Source of the DNA: Pseudomonadaceae bacterium
GTDB taxonomy: Bacteria > Pseudomonadota > Alphaproteobacteria > UBA2136 > UBA6156
Reading direction: 5' to 3'
Assembly (NCBI GenBank): GCA_024236095.1
Contig: JACKLD010000012.1
Span: 149,695 to 213,694, forward strand
Length of the DNA: 64,000 bases
In this document: piece by piece, positions 6,001 through 12,000 of the stretch
Numbering within the stretch: the first letter of the stretch is position 1
Layout: each line of letters begins with the position of its first letter
Made by a program: the position numbers

Positions 6001-9000
6001 TCTTGGCCATATGGGCAATGTGCTCGGCGGCAACCACGCCTTCATGACTGGCCACATGCGCCAACCACGGCGCCCCCACCACATCGCCGATGGCATAAAT
6101 GTGCGGCACGTTGGTTTGGTAGAAGTTGTTGACCTTAATGGCACCCTTCTCCGGCACAATCCTGATACCTTCCAGCCCCAGTCCTTCCACATTGCCCACC
6201 ACACCAATCGCCAGAATCGCCCGCTCAAACGTGCGTTCCTCGCCATTTACCGTGGCATTCACTTCGTTCTTTCCGGCCTTCAACCCTTCCAGCTTGGCAC
6301 CGGTCAATATCTCCATTCCCTGCCCTTCCAGATCTTTCTTCAGCAGCTTGGAAATCTCCTCATCCTCGGCAGGCACAATGCGCTCTTGCGCTTCCACCAG
6401 CGTCACCTTGCAGCCCAACGCATTGTAAAAACTTGCAAACTCTACACCAATCGCGCCCCCGCCTACAATCAGCAGGCTTTTGGGCAACTCGGCAGGAACC
6501 ATCGCCTCCCGCGCCGTCCAAATCAGCTTGCCATCAGCCTCCAGCACGCCGGGAACCTGCTTTGCCCGCGCCCCCGTGGCCACAATGGCGTAACCAAAGC
6601 CCACCGCCTTGCCATCCACGTCCAGCGTCTTGGCATCCTTGAATTTGGCCGTCCCTTTGATAACCTCGATCTTGTTCTTCTTCATCAAAAAGGCCACGCC
6701 CTTGCTCAGCTTGTCGGCCACCTCGCGGCTGCGCTGGATGATACGGGAAAAATCCAGCCCTTCGTCTTTCACTTTCAACCCGAAATCCGCCGCATGGGCC
6801 ACCGTCCGCTTCAGTTCTGCGGCCTTCAACAGCGCTTTGGTGGGAATACACCCCCAGTTGAGACACACGCCGCCCAAGGCATCACGCTCCACCACGGCAA
6901 CCTTCAGCCCCAACTGCGCCGCCCGGATCGCCGCCACATAGCCTCCCGGCCCTGCGCCCACCACCACCACATCAAACTGCGTGCTCATGCCTCATCTCCT
7001 TCCAACATCTCCAAAGCCTTCACAAACCCGCTCGCCAACAAATACGGAAAGCGCTCCTTCAGGAACATCAACTCTTCTTCTGTCATCACATCCAACGCGT
7101 CGGCTTCTTCCTCCCAGCCGGTCAGGTCGTCACCGTCGTACTGGCAAGCAAACACCGCAGCATTGTAAGGCTCTTTGCCGTCTACCGTGTAACGGCCCAC
7201 CTCCACCACATCGACACCTGTAACTCCAAGCTCTTCCTGCAATTCACACAGGGCCGCTTCTTCATAGGTCTGTCCGGCCTCGACCACCCCACCTGCCGAG
7301 GCTGAAAACTGCCGTGGGCAAATCATCTTGTGCCGACTGCGCCATTGCACCCACAGCTCCCTTTCAGGTGTAAACACCAACACCTGCACAAAACGGTAAC
7401 GAAGGCCTTTCTCCATCGCCTCCACACGGCTGACAGTCTTGGTCACCTTGTCGCCCTTGGTAACGATATCCACCATCTCTCCCGCTTTGGCACCATGCTC
7501 GGCGATGGTCTTGGAAATCGTCTTGCGCGGCTTGACGCTGCCTTTCTTGCCCACCATATCACGCCACCAACATCACGGCAGGCTGTTCAAGATACTGCTT
7601 GATGCGCGCCAAAAGTTCCGCGCCCAACGCGCCGTCAATCACCCGGTGGTCCACGCTCAGCGTCACCTTCATCACCTCGGCGGCAAACAGTTCGCCCCCT
7701 TCGGCCAGCACGGTTTCCTGTGTGGCGCCGACGGCCAGAATGGCGGCCTGCGGAGGGTTGATGATGGCACTGAAACTCTCCATGCCATACATGCCGAGGT
7801 TGGAGAGGCTGAACCCGCCGCCCTCATACTGCTCCGGCTTCAACTTGCCTGCACGGGCGTCGGCGGCCAACTGCTTCATCTCAGCCGAGATAGCGGGCAA
7901 ACTCTTCTGGTCGGCGTTCTGCACAATCGGCGTAATCAACCCGCCGTCGGTGGCCACCGCGACACTCACGTCTACGTTGCCGAACTGCACGATGCTGTCG
8001 CCATTCCACGCCGCATTGGCAGCAGGGAAATCGGCCAACGCCAACGCACACGCCTTGATGACAAAATCATTCACCGAAAGCTTGATGTTGCGCGCCGCCA
8101 AGTGGGCATTCAACTGCCCCCGCGCTTCCATCAACGCACCCATCTGCACGCTGGCATTCAGGTAAAAGTGCGGTACGGTCTGCTTCGATTGCGTCAGCCG
8201 CGCGGCAATGGCTTTCCGCATGGGAGAAAGCTTCTCCACCGCATCGCCCCGCCGCACAATCTGGCGGCTGCCGCCCATCGCCTGCTGGATATCCTTGGCG
8301 GTAATCCGCCCGTGCGGCCCACTGCCCGCCACCGCACCCAAATTCACGCCCTGCTGCTGCGCCAACCGCCGCGCCAACGGGCTGGCCTTGACGCGCCCGC
8401 CAGCCGCTTGCTGAACCACCGGCGTGCTGGACACAACCGGCGCGGCTACAATCGGTGTAGCAACCGGCACGGGCTGACTTTGGGCTTCCGGCTTCGGGCT
8501 TTCTGCCACAGGGGCCGCCGCCTTGCTTTTGGGAGCATAATCCGCCGCAACCTCCTCTTTCGGCCCGCGCAACACCGCAATCGGCGTGCCCACCGGCAAG
8601 TCGGCCCCCACTTCCCCCAGCACCACGTGGACAATCCCGTCGTCACTCGCTTCCACCTCCATGGTGGCCTTGTCGGTTTCCACTTCGGCAATCACCTGCC
8701 CGGCCAGCACCTTGTCTCCGGCCTGAACCAGCCATTTCGCCAACCGCCCCTCGGTCATGGTGGGGCTAAGCTGCGGCATCACGATATCAATAGGCATAAC
8801 GGCCTCCTACATTACTTGGAATTGTTTGGTTTCAAGCCATGCTCGATAAAGCACAATCGAACTCTTGCTGAATGTTTGCATGTTTTCAGGAAGTTTGTCC
8901 AAATCAAACCACGCAAAGGCGTCATATTCTCCGTCCATGGCTTCCGCCTCACCCTCAAACGCCACGGTAAACGCCAACGCAAGCGACTGCATCTCATGCC

Positions 9001-12000
9001 CATTGGGAAATACATTCAACACCTTGTCATACGCACTCAAAAACCCAATCGGCACCATGTTGTTACGCTCCGGCTGAAGCCCCGTTTCCTCATGCAACTC
9101 CCGCAACGCACAGGCCAAAATGTCCTCCTTCGGGTCAATATGCCCACCAAAGGTTGCCCATTGTTTCAAATCATTCCGCATTCCCAACAACACCTGCCCC
9201 TGGCTGTTGGTTACGATGGTTTCCGCGCCAATTCCCACCAGCAATTTCGGCCCCCAAACCTCCCGCAACTGCCAGACGTAACTGCCTTCAAACCCCATCA
9301 CACACCCCGATTCTGCCACAGCCACAGGGCGCCCAAACCGACAAACATCCAAAACACCACCATGTAGGCGCGGGCGGCATAGGTCCAGCCAATCCAGTCT
9401 GCATTCGGCGCCGCCCGCCAAATCACCACGGTAAAGAACCCCGTAATCACCACCAGTCCCAGCAAATCCGCCATGTTCACCACAATGCCCAGCAGACGCA
9501 ACGCCTGCGCCACCAGCCCCGTATCCTCGGCAAACCGCGCCCTGAACGGCGCCAACATCTCAAAGCTGAGCTTGTACATCCCCAAGTACGCCGCCAACAC
9601 CAAGGCATAAACCCCCTGCCCCCAAACCCAGAACGCGCTCCACAGCGGCACATTGCCATTCCACAAGTTGATGACAGTTTGGGTTAAAGATTCCATCATA
9701 CCCATCCCAATTGCTGGAGTTTAGAAAAAAAGACCTCTGTCAACCTGTCATAACCTTTGGCATTCCAATGAATGTTATGTGAGAAATTTTCAGACGACAC
9801 GAGCGTTTCTGGAATCATACATACCTCGACTTGTGCCTTGCGGGAGCATTCTTCTATGAAATTCAAGTGGTTGCGGTAATCGACCAACTTGATACCATTA
9901 CCATCCTGTCCAACGTAATCCTCGACCAAAACAACGCCATTGGTTACGAGCACCTTGTCACACATCGACTTGGCCTTGGCCAAAACCAAAGGCCACAACT
10001 TCTGGCGATGATGGAGGCTGAGTTTGGTATGTTGGCCATCGGCCTCATTGTATTTGAAGATATCATTGGCACAACAGCCAATAATCATCATATCCGGATC
10101 GCGGGCCAGCGCCTCCCCCATACGCGCATTGATATCGCGGATCGTATCTCCACCAATACCAAGGTTAAAGACACGCATCCCGCCCTCTCCGTGCTGGGGT
10201 GGGTTTTTCTGAGCTATGCGACCGACCCAACCTCCAAGGCCAAGCTCGTCTCCTTCTCCTTCGACAATGCTGTCACCGATACAAACAAGATTCTTCACCG
10301 CTCTCCCCCCACCAAAGCAACGGTTTCGCGCACAATATCCTCCACCTGCGGCACACACAGCACCTCCAGATTCGGCGCATACGGCAACGGCACATCAGCC
10401 TGGCTCATCCGCACCACCGGGGCGTCCAGCTCATCCCAACAGGTGTCGGAAATGGTCGCCATAACCTCGGCCCCCACCCCGGCGGGCGCCCAGGTTTCCT
10501 CCAGCACCACCGCGCGATGGGTGCGCGCCACGCTGGCGGCAATCGCGTCTTTATCCAAGGGGCGCAGGCTGCGCAAATCCACCACTTCGCAGGCAATCCC
10601 CTGCGAGGCCAACTGTTTGGCCGCCTCGCGCGCTTTCACCGCCATCATGGAATAGGCAAACACACTCACCTGCGGCTCTCCGTCACCAAAGGCATCCACC
10701 CGCGCCTTGCCGATTTCAAGCGTGTAATCATCCCCTTCCGGCACTTCGCCCGTGTGGCCGTACAACACCTCGTGCTCCAGCACCACCACTGGGGCAGTGT
10801 CCCGAATCGCCGCCTTCAACAACCCCTTCGCGTCGGCAGGGTCGGAAGGCGCCACCACCTTCAACCCGGGAATGTTCATGTACCAACTGGCGTAATCCTG
10901 ACTGTGCTGCGCCGCCACATGGGCAGCCACGCCGTTGAGACCACGGAAGACGATGGGACAGCTCACCTTGCCGCCGCTCATGTAATGGGTTTTGGCCGCG
11001 CTGTTGATGATATGGTCGGTGGCCAGCATGGCGAAGTTCCACGTCATATACTCCACAATCGGCTTCAGGCCCGCCATCGCCGCCCCCACCGCAATGCCGG
11101 TAAAGCCGCACTCGGCAATCGGCGTATCAATCACGCGTTCGTGGCCAAATTCCTGCACCATGCCCACACTGCATTTGTAGCTGCCCTGGTAATCCGCAAC
11201 CTCTTCGCCCATCAGCAACACGTTGGCGTCCCTGCGCATCTCCTCGCTCATTGCATCACGAATGGCATCACGGTAGGTTTGGTTAGGCACGGGCATCGCT
11301 CCCCTTGATTACGCGGTCAGTCATAAAGTGGGGGGGAAAACTACCGTTTTTCGTCAATTCACCTTTGCGCTCACGCCCCTCACGCAACAAATTGTTATAG
11401 AAAGCCACAAACTCATCTGAAAGATCATGATATCGCGAGTCATGCCGCGCCTTACACCAGATGCGGTCGCCATGCGGACAAAGACCGTGCTCTTCCATAC
11501 CCTGTTTCCACATCGCCCATAACTCATCACTCACCATGCCCATGCGCTGGGCCTGAAACTCGGTATCGAAAAACACCAGCATGTCATGCACGGCCTCCTC
11601 CACCCCCGGATTCAACGCCTCTTCGAGTGGAATTTTCTTAAACCCCGGCATACGTTTCTTGATGGCAAGGTAATCGTTCTTGAAATCCTTGAACATCGAG
11701 ACATCTGATTGACGACGCGCAAACTGTAAAGCCTCAAGTTGGTGGCGTGTACTCTCCTCGTTGGCACGAGCCTGCTTAAGCGAGGCCCATAACGAGCCCG
11801 CCGCAACGGCAAGCGCCGTCCCCGACAACAACAAACTCACAAGATTATTCGCGTTTTCCATTCCTAAGCCCCCACATCCGTCCAAAGCTCACAGGCATCC
11901 GGACGCGGCGCACTGGTCGCCACCTCCGCCACACGGACGACTTCTTTTTTTATCTTTTCATCAATACTTTCAAACCATTCGGAGGATTTATTCAAGTTAT

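What the first reader, a model, noticed from the sequence alone, without database searches (positions are those of the whole stretch)
6985..11861. pdh operon carries five intercalated accessory genes, several with lower GC
The order is pdhA - hypothetical TM protein (11283-11861, ~48% GC) - pdhB - GDSL hydrolase (9696-10298, ~47% GC, GTG start overlapping the pdhB stop) - membrane protein (9298-9705) - NUDIX (8807-9298, ~50% GC) - pdhC - NUDIX with Lys-rich tail (6985-7557) - lpd. The genes overlap end to end, which implies a single transcript. Two distinct NUDIX hydrolases embedded in a pyruvate dehydrogenase operon could be housecleaning enzymes for CoA, acetyl-CoA or NADH derivatives tied to the complex.
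Basis: partly seen in the sequence, partly recalled or inferred. Interest (0 to 1): 0.55.

Follow-up and report, generated by a model that had tools for sequence, protein, structure and literature searches.

The report
Pyruvate dehydrogenase operon with conserved embedded genes
An uncultured alphaproteobacterium carries five small extra genes (one esterase, two Nudix hydrolases, two orphan membrane proteins) between its four pyruvate dehydrogenase genes; relatives carry the same gene families in the same positions, so this is a long-standing lineage habit rather than a set of recent insertions, and what the extra genes do is still unknown.

Summary
On the minus strand the order is pdhA, hyp192, pdhB, GDSL, memb135, NUDIX163, pdhC, NUDIX190, lpd. 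Junctions run from -14 to +9 nt. GC is 48-56% for four of the five extras, against 59-63% for the pdh genes.

The extras are not mostly recent insertions.
- All 19 pdh loci examined from the same uncultured alphaproteobacterial clade carry at least one embedded gene.
- Each family keeps to its own gap. hyp192 lies in pdhA|pdhB. memb135 and the MutT-like Nudix lie in pdhB|pdhC. The YfcD/DR_0079-like Nudix lies in pdhC|lpd.
- Against the closest relative (PdhB 91% identical), memb135 and both Nudix genes give dN/dS of 0.12-0.14, like the pdh genes.
- The GDSL and hyp192 gaps do turn over: identity there is only 32-36%.
- Relatives add GNAT, methyltransferase, deaminase and GIY-YIG genes.

The CoA/NADH idea has no motif support. 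However, S. meliloti (SGNH + GNAT) and Sphingomonas (acyl-CoA thioesterase) carry non-orthologous acyl-handling enzymes between pdhC and lpdA. The window's nuo operon is also interrupted, by three GIY-YIG elements and cutA.

Verdict: a new variant of a known operon habit, of moderate interest.

The parts
12941..13046 (-). Leader and probable promoter region of the operon. A terminator-like hairpin of the upstream HD-GYP gene (13023-13046) is followed by about 80 nt before the pdhA ATG.
11864..12940 (-). pdhA, PDH E1 alpha (358 aa)
   Evidence: TIGR03182, 436 bits against a cut-off of 393.85; PF00676
11283..11861 (-). hyp192: orphan protein with one N-terminal hydrophobic helix, in the pdhA|pdhB gap. 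GC 52.2%.
   Evidence: No Pfam or NCBIfam hit. Homologues in the same gap in L025, L001 and L003 (BLASTP E 1e-7 to 1e-14). Only 32% identical to L025. The AF2 model is unusable (pLDDT 46).
10295..11296 (-). pdhB, PDH E1 beta (333 aa). It lacks the N-terminal lipoyl domain seen in outgroup PdhB.
   Evidence: NF008854, 501 bits against 454, matching profile positions 141-458 only. Lipoyl-like hits lie upstream of pdhB in L009-L014 and in L033 and L034.
9696..10298 (-). GDSL/SGNH hydrolase (200 aa, GTG start in a GTGA overlap with the pdhB stop). GC 48.4%. Subfamily signature GDSIVEGEGD.
   Evidence: PF13472, 54 bits against 32.9; PF00657, 46 against 23.6. Ser10, Asn45, Asp79 and His177 are invariant across 12 homologues. 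All 11 alphaproteobacterial members of this subfamily that were examined lie inside pdh operons.
9298..9705 (-). memb135: orphan membrane protein with an amphipathic N-terminal helix and three long helices. Native GC.
   Evidence: AF2 pLDDT 84.5. No PDB fold match. Only 4 clusters at E<1e-10 among 1.84 billion representatives. All 9 copies lie in the pdhB|pdhC gap. dN/dS 0.13 against L025.
8807..9298 (-). NUDIX163 (Nudix-A, MutT-like) with a canonical Nudix box, GHIDPKEDILACALRELHEETGL. GC 50.6%.
   Evidence: PF00293, 73.9 bits. Box checked. Ten homologues, all in the pdhB|pdhC gap. dN/dS 0.14. NCBI protein MCP5404779.1.
7559..8797 (-). pdhC, PDH E2 dihydrolipoamide acetyltransferase (412 aa)
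   Evidence: TIGR01349, 472 bits against 445
6985..7557 (-). NUDIX190 (Nudix-B, related to YfcD/DR_0079) with a Lys-rich N-terminal extension. Its Nudix box, GVVEAGQTYEEAALCELQEELGV, carries E->Q and R->C.
   Evidence: PF00293, 47.7 bits. NF011922 (YfcD), 71.8 bits, below the cut-off of 152. PDB 2fkb E 4e-13; 1q27/2o5f E 8.5e-11. Five of the six pdhC|lpd-gap orthologues have a canonical box; the L022 copy fits neither pattern tried. dN/dS 0.12. MCP5404777.1.
5603..6988 (-). lpd, E3 dihydrolipoyl dehydrogenase (461 aa). ATGA overlap with NUDIX190.
   Evidence: TIGR01350, 528.5 bits against 408.8; junction

Best explanation
This is the native pdh operon of an uncultured alphaproteobacterial lineage. 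Over a long period it has accumulated resident accessory genes in the three gaps between pdhA, pdhB, pdhC and lpd. Two modules recur. The first is an SGNH/GDSL hydrolase with an orphan three-helix membrane protein (memb135) in the pdhB|pdhC gap, often with a membrane-anchored orphan (hyp192 family) in the pdhA|pdhB gap. The second is a pair of Nudix hydrolases: a MutT-like one before pdhC and a YfcD/DR_0079-like one before lpd. Shown: the genes abut or overlap their neighbours, so they are most simply read as one transcript with translational coupling. The same families sit in the same gaps across the clade. memb135 and both Nudix genes are under purifying selection comparable to the pdh genes. 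The gaps nevertheless gain, lose and replace genes. Inferred: the extras are kept because co-expression with PDH is useful. The most likely role is small maintenance hydrolases acting on acyl or nucleotide-cofactor species around the complex. On this reading the GDSL is a functional analogue of the non-orthologous SGNH, GNAT and acyl-CoA-thioesterase genes embedded in other alphaproteobacterial pdh operons. Their lower GC reflects weaker codon and amino-acid constraint, with occasional replacement, rather than recent arrival of the whole set. The substrates remain unknown. The Nudix pair does not look like CoA- or NADH-type enzymes.
For: Anatomy. Clade-wide recurrence with gap fidelity: 19 loci, namely WIN, L001-L008, L020-L022, L025, L029, L031 and L038-L041. 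The loci are orthologous by conserved upstream synteny. Purifying selection: dN/dS is 0.13, 0.14 and 0.12 for memb135, NUDIX163 and NUDIX190, against 0.09-0.18 for pdhA, pdhB and pdhC. Catalytic residues are conserved in the GDSL family, and the Nudix core is conserved in most of the 18 Nudix sequences. memb135 has been seen only in this context. Turnover: the window's GDSL is 34% identical to that of L025 although PdhB is 91% identical, and the L025 enzyme lacks the subfamily signature. Lineage-specific GNAT, SAM-methyltransferase, dCMP-deaminase, GIY-YIG and small membrane ORFs occur, several at 34-45% GC. Precedent: S. meliloti has pdhC, SGNH, GNAT, lpdA, and Sphingomonas has pdhC, hypothetical, acyl-CoA thioesterase, lpdA. 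The S. meliloti SGNH is not orthologous to the window's.
Against: There are no expression, interaction or enzymatic data. The same window's nuo operon is also interrupted (three GIY-YIG genes and cutA), so nesting genes inside core operons may be a genome-wide habit with no functional tie to the host operon. The singleton extras in relatives (methyltransferase, deaminase, GIY-YIG) have no obvious PDH logic. dS between WIN and L025 is high (0.7-2.0), so the dN/dS values are rough. The sample is limited to what pattern and word-index searches could retrieve. Whether these families also occur outside pdh operons in the same genomes could not be checked beyond the 6-17 kb loci. Six outgroup alphaproteobacterial loci have nothing between pdhA, pdhB and pdhC.
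Confidence: 0.55

Rival explanations
1. Pure expression hitch-hiking. The extras are unrelated housekeeping genes that persist in pdh junctions only because a strongly and constitutively transcribed essential operon supplies expression without a promoter. Gap fidelity is then historical inertia, not a functional link to PDH.
For: The nuo operon in the same window carries cutA between nuoL and nuoM, and three GIY-YIG genes between nuoF|G, nuoG|H and nuoJ|K. Relatives embed functionally miscellaneous genes in pdh, such as a SAM-methyltransferase, a dCMP deaminase and GIY-YIG genes. A distant GDSL homologue in a Patescibacteria MAG sits inside the rpsL-rpsG-fusA-tuf operon.
Against: The same few families recur over deep divergence (PdhB 62-91% identity, genome GC 36-61%). 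All 11 GDSL genes of this subfamily that were examined are in pdh operons, in two different gaps. In L025 an SGNH of a different subfamily occupies the same position next to memb135. Non-orthologous esterase, thioesterase and GNAT genes occupy pdhC|lpdA in S. meliloti and Sphingomonas. Convergence of this kind is not expected from inertia alone.
Confidence: 0.3
2. Recent horizontal insertions. The low-GC extras arrived lately from AT-richer donors.
For: GC of 48-52% for GDSL, NUDIX163 and hyp192 against 60% for the window. GDSL and hyp192 are only 32-36% identical to the copies in the closest relative. Several relatives hold embedded ORFs at 34-45% GC.
Against: NUDIX163, NUDIX190 and memb135 have 68-73% identical orthologues in the same gaps in L025, with dN/dS of 0.12-0.14. 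The family-specific GC deficit recurs across lineages: GDSL is 42.6-54% in L021, L022, L025 and L005, while memb135 is native everywhere. No flanking repeats of the kind seen around the GIY-YIG elements occur in the pdh operon. No memb135 relative was found on viral contigs, and only one partial GDSL match.
Confidence: 0.12
3. The two Nudix enzymes are CoA, acyl-CoA or NADH pyrophosphatases that clean PDH cofactors.
For: Only their placement in an operon whose products and cofactors are acetyl-CoA, CoA and NADH, and the established existence of Nudix enzymes for CoA, NADH and thiamin diphosphate (review PMC5389931).
Against: No NuCoA-like motif and no SQPWPFPxS (NudC) motif in any of the 18 operon-embedded Nudix sequences (the motif patterns were written from memory). 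PDB sequence hits are generic MutT, ADP-ribose, Ap4A and NUDT1 types for NUDIX163, and YfcD and DR_0079 for NUDIX190. No CoA or NADH pyrophosphatase structures appear. DR_0079 prefers cytosine (d)NDP/(d)NTP. In L006 a dCMP-deaminase-like gene sits next to the Nudix-B gene. The window's NUDIX190 has two substitutions in the Nudix box.
Confidence: 0.1

Closest known systems
Sinorhizobium meliloti pdh operon (ftsB-like, pdhA, pdhB, pdhC, SGNH/GDSL hydrolase, GNAT, lpdA, then lipA), as annotated in CP090106.1
   Same: An alphaproteobacterial E1-alpha/beta-type PDH operon with small acyl-handling enzymes embedded between core genes. L022 of the present clade also carries a GNAT next to its GDSL.
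   Different: In S. meliloti the extras lie only between pdhC and lpdA. Its SGNH belongs to another subfamily (BLASTP E 0.02 against the window's, matching the GDS block only). It has no Nudix genes, no memb135 and no hyp192. Its PdhB carries an N-terminal lipoyl domain. I found no paper in the searchable library that characterises these embedded genes.
Sphingomonas parapaucimobilis pdhC, hypothetical, acyl-CoA thioesterase, lpdA (NZ_CP155750.1)
   Same: A small hydrolase annotated as acting on acyl-CoA is embedded in the pdhC|lpdA gap.
   Different: The enzyme carries a different annotation (acyl-CoA thioesterase, 131 aa, not SGNH). The locus has no Nudix genes, and pdhA and pdhB are not adjacent.
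YfcD (E. coli, PDB 2fkb) and DR_0079 (D. radiodurans, PDB 1q27/2o5f) Nudix subfamily
   Same: NUDIX190 aligns over about 140 residues (E 4e-13 and 8.5e-11) and shares the N-terminal beta-hairpin region that precedes the Nudix fold.
   Different: It scores below the NCBIfam YfcD equivalog cut-off (71.8 against 152). It has a Lys-rich N-terminal extension and E->Q and R->C changes in the Nudix box. Neither YfcD nor DR_0079 is known to me to be linked to pdh.
SGNH hydrolases such as Geobacillus Axe2 acetyl-xylan esterase (PDB 3w7v/4jhl) and TesA-type lysophospholipase L1 (the name JGI gives to homologues)
   Same: Block I GDS serine, block II Asn/Gly, block III ND and block V His are conserved.
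   Different: Only the N-terminal half aligns with Axe2 (E 2e-6). The protein is a minimal 200-aa cytoplasmic form with its own GDSIVEGEGD signature, and the Asp of the block V DxxH is not conserved. Substrate is unknown.
Free-standing GIY-YIG endonuclease genes flanked by hairpin repeats (seen here in the nuo operon)
   Same: They also sit in junctions of a core energy operon of the same genome. GIY-YIG genes occur in the pdh operons of L002 and L041.
   Different: The pdh extras of the window have no flanking inverted repeats, they abut or overlap their neighbours (the GIY-YIG genes have spacers of 54-65 nt), and three of them are under strong purifying selection.

Membership tests
Alphaproteobacterial/mitochondrial-type PDH complex operon | E1 alpha, E1 beta, E2 and E3 each reach the curated equivalog cut-offs | tested here: met
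   TIGR03182 436/393.85; NF008854 501/454; TIGR01349 472/445; TIGR01350 528.5/408.8
Alphaproteobacterial/mitochondrial-type PDH complex operon | Genes co-directional and contiguous, consistent with one transcription unit | tested here: met
   Junctions from -14 to +9 nt. Promoter- and terminator-like sites are not above the shuffle expectation. Transcription itself was not tested.
Nudix hydrolase superfamily | PF00293 above the gathering score | tested here: met
   73.9 bits (NUDIX163) and 47.7 bits (NUDIX190) against 21.1
Nudix hydrolase superfamily | Canonical Nudix box GX5EX7REUXEEXGU | tested here: inconclusive
   NUDIX163 has an exact box. NUDIX190 has Q for the first E and C for R, with the EE pair retained. 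Five of its six pdhC|lpd-gap orthologues are canonical.
CoA pyrophosphatase Nudix (NudL, Nudt7, DR_1184 type) | NuCoA motif (LLTxR[SA]x3Rx3Gx3FPGG, recalled from memory) upstream of the Nudix box | tested here: not met
   The regex was absent from all 18 sequences. No CoA pyrophosphatase chain appears among the PDB hits at E<=1e-3.
NADH pyrophosphatase NudC | SQPWPFPxS motif downstream of the Nudix box | tested here: not met
   Absent from all 18 sequences. No NudC among the PDB hits.
YfcD (NCBIfam NF011922 equivalog) | Score at or above the curated cut-off of 152 bits | tested here: not met
   71.8 bits, E 5e-20. Homologous to 2fkb and 1q27, so a relative but not an equivalog.
SGNH/GDSL hydrolase | Pfam GDSL models above the gathering score, with the block I Ser, block II Gly/Asn, block III Asn and block V His | tested here: met
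   PF13472 54/32.9; PF00657 46/23.6. Ser10, Asn45, Asp79 and His177 are invariant in 12 homologues, and the Asn of the block III ND pair is present in all eight alphaproteobacterial copies. The Asp of DxxH is not conserved (N in the window).
Acyl-CoA/acetyl thioesterase activity (TesA-like) | Measured hydrolysis of acyl-CoA or S-acyl-lipoamide thioesters | not testable with these tools
   The only support is a source name ('lysophospholipase L1-like esterase') and the analogy with embedded thioesterase and SGNH genes elsewhere.
GIY-YIG/hairpin-repeat insertion elements | Gene bounded by inverted copies of the CGTCATTCCAGCGAAGGCTGGAA hairpin repeat | tested here: not met
   Seven copies in the window, all within 46272-56775 (the nuo operon), and none within 5603-13046.

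The most novel reading that the evidence does not exclude
Alphaproteobacterial PDH complexes have an unrecognised maintenance module that is repeatedly recruited into the operon. Its first part is a (thio)esterase: SGNH here and in Sinorhizobium, an enzyme annotated as acyl-CoA thioesterase in Sphingomonas. This enzyme would edit mis-acylated or stalled lipoyl arms, or relieve CoA trapping, much as type II thioesterases edit carrier domains. Its second part is Nudix enzymes that remove damaged nucleotide-type cofactors. 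In this clade the orphan membrane proteins memb135 and hyp192 would hold the esterase or the complex at the membrane.
Probability: 0.15. Interest if true: 0.75.

Novelty: new variant of a known kind. Interest (0 to 1): 0.45.

Why it matters
PDH is among the best-studied enzyme complexes, yet the small genes embedded in alphaproteobacterial pdh operons have, as far as I could find, never been characterised. This clade is the extreme case, with up to six extras, two of them orphan membrane proteins seen nowhere else. Across lineages, different non-orthologous acyl-handling hydrolases have been recruited to the same operon. That pattern makes a concrete hypothesis testable in a tractable organism such as S. 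meliloti: accessory editing or house-cleaning activities tied to PDH. Separately, the locus is a clean natural example of how essential operons gain, keep and swap passenger genes at their junctions. It also shows that low GC inside an operon need not mean recent transfer.

Tried and rejected
- Metagenome scan with a memb135 alignment: one extra locus only (L031), again pdhA, pdhB, memb135.
- Viral-contig scans for GDSL and memb135: one partial hit and none, so there is no sign of phage carriage.
- Word-index homologue searches for the two Nudix proteins returned only 2 and 7 very close relatives. Their wider distribution and context could therefore not be assessed.
- AF2 on hyp192 without an alignment: pLDDT 46, unusable.
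- Foldseek of the memb135 model against the PDB: nothing at E<=0.001. The afdb50 library was unavailable.
- Pfam at E<=5 on four hyp192-family and two memb135-family members: only noise.
- Literature searches found nothing on embedded pdh genes. The terms tried were pdhC/lpdA/GDSL, SGNH with pyruvate dehydrogenase, the SMc01033-35 locus tags, and Nudix with pdh neighbourhood.
- Rank correlation of pairwise identities between PdhB and GDSL or memb135 was weak (rho about 0.31, p about 0.1). PdhB identities are compressed at 78-86%, so the test is not informative on vertical versus horizontal descent.
- The idea that the extras were delivered by the hairpin-flanked GIY-YIG elements was rejected for the window, because no such repeats lie in the pdh operon.
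- The idea that the ORFs are artefacts was rejected on homology and dN/dS.
- Plasmid-borne pdhC hits in Rhizobium sp. ACO-34A and Salipiger are different, non-canonical loci and were not used.

Full report
**1. The observation**

Nine ORFs lie head to tail on the minus strand between 5603 and 12940. Pfam and NCBIfam identify them as follows.
- pdhA: TIGR03182, 436 bits against a cut-off of 394.
- pdhB: NF008854, 501 against 454.
- pdhC: TIGR01349, 472 against 445.
- lpd: TIGR01350, 528 against 409.
- One GDSL/SGNH hydrolase (9696-10298).
- Two NUDIX proteins (8807-9298 and 6985-7557).
- Two ORFs with no family: 11283-11861 (hyp192) and 9298-9705 (memb135).

The junctions, in operon order, are +2, -14, -4, -10, -1, +9, +1 and -4 nt. 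The -4 junction includes the GTG start of the GDSL gene inside a GTGA overlap with the pdhB stop.

GC content:

| Gene or region | GC % |
|---|---|
| GDSL | 48.4 |
| NUDIX163 | 50.6 |
| hyp192 | 52.2 |
| NUDIX190 | 55.7 |
| memb135 | 58.1 |
| pdh genes | 59-63 |
| whole window | 60.0 |

The deficit shows at all three codon positions. GC3 is 54-66% in the four low-GC extras against 74-78% in the pdh genes. Relative to a crude map of 54 genes (mean 59.3%, sd 4.0), GDSL and NUDIX163 lie more than 2 sd low.

Inside the operon, promoter-like and terminator-like sites are no more frequent than in shuffled sequence. A terminator-like hairpin closes the upstream HD-GYP gene about 80 nt before pdhA.

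The description stands with two small corrections. hyp192 is 52% GC, not 48%. The Lys-rich stretch of the 190-aa NUDIX is an N-terminal extension.

**2. Relatives**

A genome-collection scan with PdhB returned 19 loci. Eight of them (L001-L008) are uncultured alphaproteobacterial MAGs with PdhB 62-83% identical to the window's. Exact-protein look-ups of GDSL and Nudix homologues added L020-L022, L025, L029 and L038-L041. A metagenome scan added L031.

The upstream synteny (C93 peptidase, HD-GYP, pdhA) is shared by L002, L004, L006, L007, L022 and L025 and by L038. The loci are therefore orthologous.

Every one of these 19 loci, the window included, has at least one gene embedded among the pdh genes. 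Six more distant alphaproteobacterial loci (L009-L014) have none between pdhA, pdhB and pdhC. In those the pdhA-pdhB interval encodes the N-terminal lipoyl domain of PdhB, which this clade lacks.

**3. What is embedded, and where**

Clustering the embedded proteins of 14 curated loci gave four recurrent families plus singletons.
- Nudix: 18 instances.
- GDSL: 8 instances, with 4 more.
- memb135: 8 instances, with 1 more in L031.
- hyp192: 4 instances.
- Singletons: GNAT (L022), SAM-methyltransferase (L004), dCMP/cytidine-deaminase-like (L006), GIY-YIG (L002, and L041), and several small membrane ORFs, some at 34-41% GC.

Each family keeps to a gap.
- hyp192 relatives lie only in pdhA|pdhB.
- memb135 (9 of 9) and the MutT-like Nudix-A (10 of 10) lie only in pdhB|pdhC.
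- The YfcD-like Nudix-B lies in pdhC|lpd, with one extra paralogue in pdhA|pdhB in L025.
- GDSL lies in pdhB|pdhC, or in pdhA|pdhB in L001 and L008.

Two co-occurrence modules emerge: GDSL with memb135, and Nudix-A with Nudix-B. Some lineages hold one module, and some, like the window, hold both.

**4. Old or recent?**

The closest relative found is L025, from a Logan assembly. Its architecture matches the window's, plus a third Nudix. The comparison is in the table.

| Gene | Identity to window, % | dN/dS |
|---|---|---|
| PdhB | 91 | 0.09 |
| PdhA | 82 | 0.15 |
| PdhC | 79 | 0.18 |
| memb135 | 73 | 0.13 |
| NUDIX163 | 69 | 0.14 |
| NUDIX190 | 69 | 0.12 |
| GDSL | 34-36 | not computable (dS saturated) |
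| hyp192 | 32 | 0.42 |

dS is high (0.7-2.0), so these ratios are rough. Even so, three of the five extras are clearly conserved residents.

The L025 GDSL lacks the GDSIVEGEGD signature of the window's subfamily and is equidistant (about 30%) from everything else. I read this as in-place replacement by another SGNH hydrolase, or else extreme divergence.

The GC deficit is family-specific and recurs. GDSL is 42.6-54% in L021, L022, L025 and L005 but native in L001, and memb135 is native everywhere. Low GC here is therefore not evidence of recency.

**5. The proteins**

*GDSL.* A minimal 200-aa cytoplasmic SGNH hydrolase. Ser10, Asn45, Asp79 and His177 are invariant across 12 homologues. PDB similarity is limited to the N-terminal half of acetyl-xylan esterase Axe2. 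Only 43 homologues at E<=1e-5 were found. The alphaproteobacterial ones examined are all in pdh operons. The more distant ones are from Patescibacteria, where one sits inside the rpsL-rpsG-fusA-tuf operon.

*NUDIX163.* It has a perfect Nudix box and only generic MutT, ADP-ribose, Ap4A and NUDT1-type PDB relatives.

*NUDIX190.* It is related to YfcD (2fkb, E 4e-13) and DR_0079 (E 8.5e-11) but scores below the YfcD equivalog cut-off. DR_0079 prefers cytosine (deoxy)nucleoside di- and triphosphates (Buchko et al. 2008, as cited in PMC5389931). In L006 a dCMP-deaminase-like gene is its neighbour. The window's copy has E->Q and R->C in the Nudix box, whereas five of its six pdhC|lpd-gap orthologues are canonical.

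*Motifs.* None of the 18 Nudix sequences carries a CoA-type or NudC-type motif (patterns written from memory).

*memb135.* It models confidently (pLDDT 84.5) as an amphipathic helix plus three long helices. It has no PDB fold match. It is nearly unique, with 4 clusters at E<1e-10 among 1.84 billion representatives.

*hyp192.* It has one N-terminal hydrophobic helix and could not be modelled.

**6. Context that bears on mechanism**

(a) The nuo operon in the same window is also interrupted.
- cutA lies between nuoL and nuoM.
- GIY-YIG genes lie between nuoF|G, nuoG|H and nuoJ|K.
- Each GIY-YIG gene is bounded by inverted copies of a hairpin repeat, CGTCATTCCAGCGAAGGCTGGAA. The window holds seven copies where none is expected, including an empty pair at 52038-52105.
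- None of these repeats lies in the pdh operon.

Nesting genes in core operons is therefore a habit of this genome, but the pdh extras were not delivered by that element.

(b) Cultured Alphaproteobacteria show the same theme with different genes.
- S. meliloti has pdhC, SGNH/GDSL hydrolase, GNAT, lpdA.
- Sphingomonas parapaucimobilis has pdhC, hypothetical, acyl-CoA thioesterase, lpdA.
- The S. meliloti SGNH is not orthologous to the window's.

Repeated recruitment of non-orthologous acyl-handling enzymes to pdh operons is the best available argument that at least the esterase is functionally tied to PDH chemistry.

**7. Conclusion**

The best-supported reading is a native, clade-typical pdh operon with long-resident, selected and translationally coupled accessory genes arranged in gap-specific modules, on top of continuing turnover. 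This part is shown.

That the extras serve PDH is inferred. On that inference the GDSL would act as a (thio)esterase, the Nudix pair as cofactor or nucleotide house-cleaners, and the orphan membrane proteins as partners or anchors. The main rival is plain expression hitch-hiking. The specific CoA/NADH proposal for the Nudix pair is not supported by motifs or by the nearest characterised relatives, but only enzymology can settle it.

The finding is a new variant of a known though uncharacterised operon habit, and of moderate interest.

Noticed in passing
window 51013-51376, 56399-56775 and 53690-54260; also 52038-52105 and 46272-46294: The nuo (complex I) operon holds three roughly 95-aa GIY-YIG genes, between nuoJ|K, nuoF|G and nuoG|H. 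Each is bounded by inverted copies of a hairpin repeat, CGTCATTCCAGCGAAGGCTGGAA. There are seven copies within 3 mismatches where none is expected. An 'empty' inverted pair lies between nuoJ and nuoI, and a solo copy lies at the nuoM end. This looks like a small mobile element that targets operon junctions. GIY-YIG genes also sit in the pdh operons of L002 and L041.
   Followed up: partly
window 47844-48173: A cutA1 gene (PF03091, E 6e-33) is embedded between nuoL and nuoM, overlapping both. This is another passenger gene in a core operon.
   Followed up: partly
L023 5583-6423 (Patescibacteria MAG GCA_030639395.1): A 30%-identical homologue of the window's GDSL sits inside the rpsL-rpsG-fusA-tuf operon. 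It is directly preceded by a 76-aa ORF that retains a 22-residue remnant of the EF-G G3 region (KDYLINLIDTPGHVDFG, 77% identical to the intact fusA downstream). This may be a scar of rearrangement or insertion.
   Followed up: partly
L025 7229-7852 compared with window 9696-10298: In the closest relative (PdhB 91% identical) the hydrolase in the same position is only 34% identical. It lacks the GDSIVEGEGD signature, while its neighbour memb135 is 73% identical. This looks like in-place replacement of one SGNH hydrolase by another.
   Followed up: partly
window 6985-7557 (NUDIX190), residues about 90-112: The Nudix box reads GVVEAGQTYEEAALCELQEELGV. The first conserved Glu is Gln and the conserved Arg is Cys, unlike the canonical boxes in five of the six pdhC|lpd-gap orthologues. 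The window's copy may have altered or reduced activity.
   Followed up: partly
window 10295-11296, compared with L009-L014, L033 and L034: PdhB of this clade lacks the N-terminal lipoyl domain that is fused to PdhB in the outgroup Alphaproteobacteria, including S. meliloti and Paracoccus. The pdhA|pdhB interval that encodes the domain there is the gap that holds hyp192, GDSL or small membrane genes here.
   Followed up: partly
whole window; NCBI proteins MCP5404777.1 and MCP5404779.1: The source MAG (contig of 505,967 bp) is labelled 'Pseudomonadaceae bacterium' and L001 is labelled 'uncultured Pseudomonadales'. The PDH type, the nuoN, birA, RNase J order and all close relatives point to Alphaproteobacteria. 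The label is probably wrong.
   Followed up: no
L033 (CP090106.1): A PLSDB record called 'S. meliloti plasmid pSymB' is 3.72 Mb long and carries eno, ftsB, the pdh operon and lipA. It is evidently the chromosome, mislabelled.
   Followed up: no
window 13089-14861, 11864-12940 and 6985-7557 (N-termini): The HD-GYP-type protein, PdhA and NUDIX190 all begin with Lys/Ala/Pro-rich extensions, e.g. MAPRKPTRKTVKPAKNVARKAAKVPAKKVAPARGKK. This may be a lineage-wide trait of unknown meaning.
   Followed up: no
window 3600-5558 and 2659-3603: Downstream of lpd, only 44 nt away and with no terminator-like site, lie two ORFs of 336 and 303 aa that match no Pfam family. A VirB11/T2SSE-type ATPase follows on the other strand. 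In relatives lpd is followed by lipA (L021, L022) or an EamA gene (L026), so the 3' flank differs here.
   Followed up: partly
window 60013-61101: A second, weak GDSL-like ORF (362 aa, PF13472 at 27.6 bits, below the cut-off, GC 52%) lies next to a carbamoyltransferase gene. It is unrelated to the pdh GDSL by tblastn.
   Followed up: no
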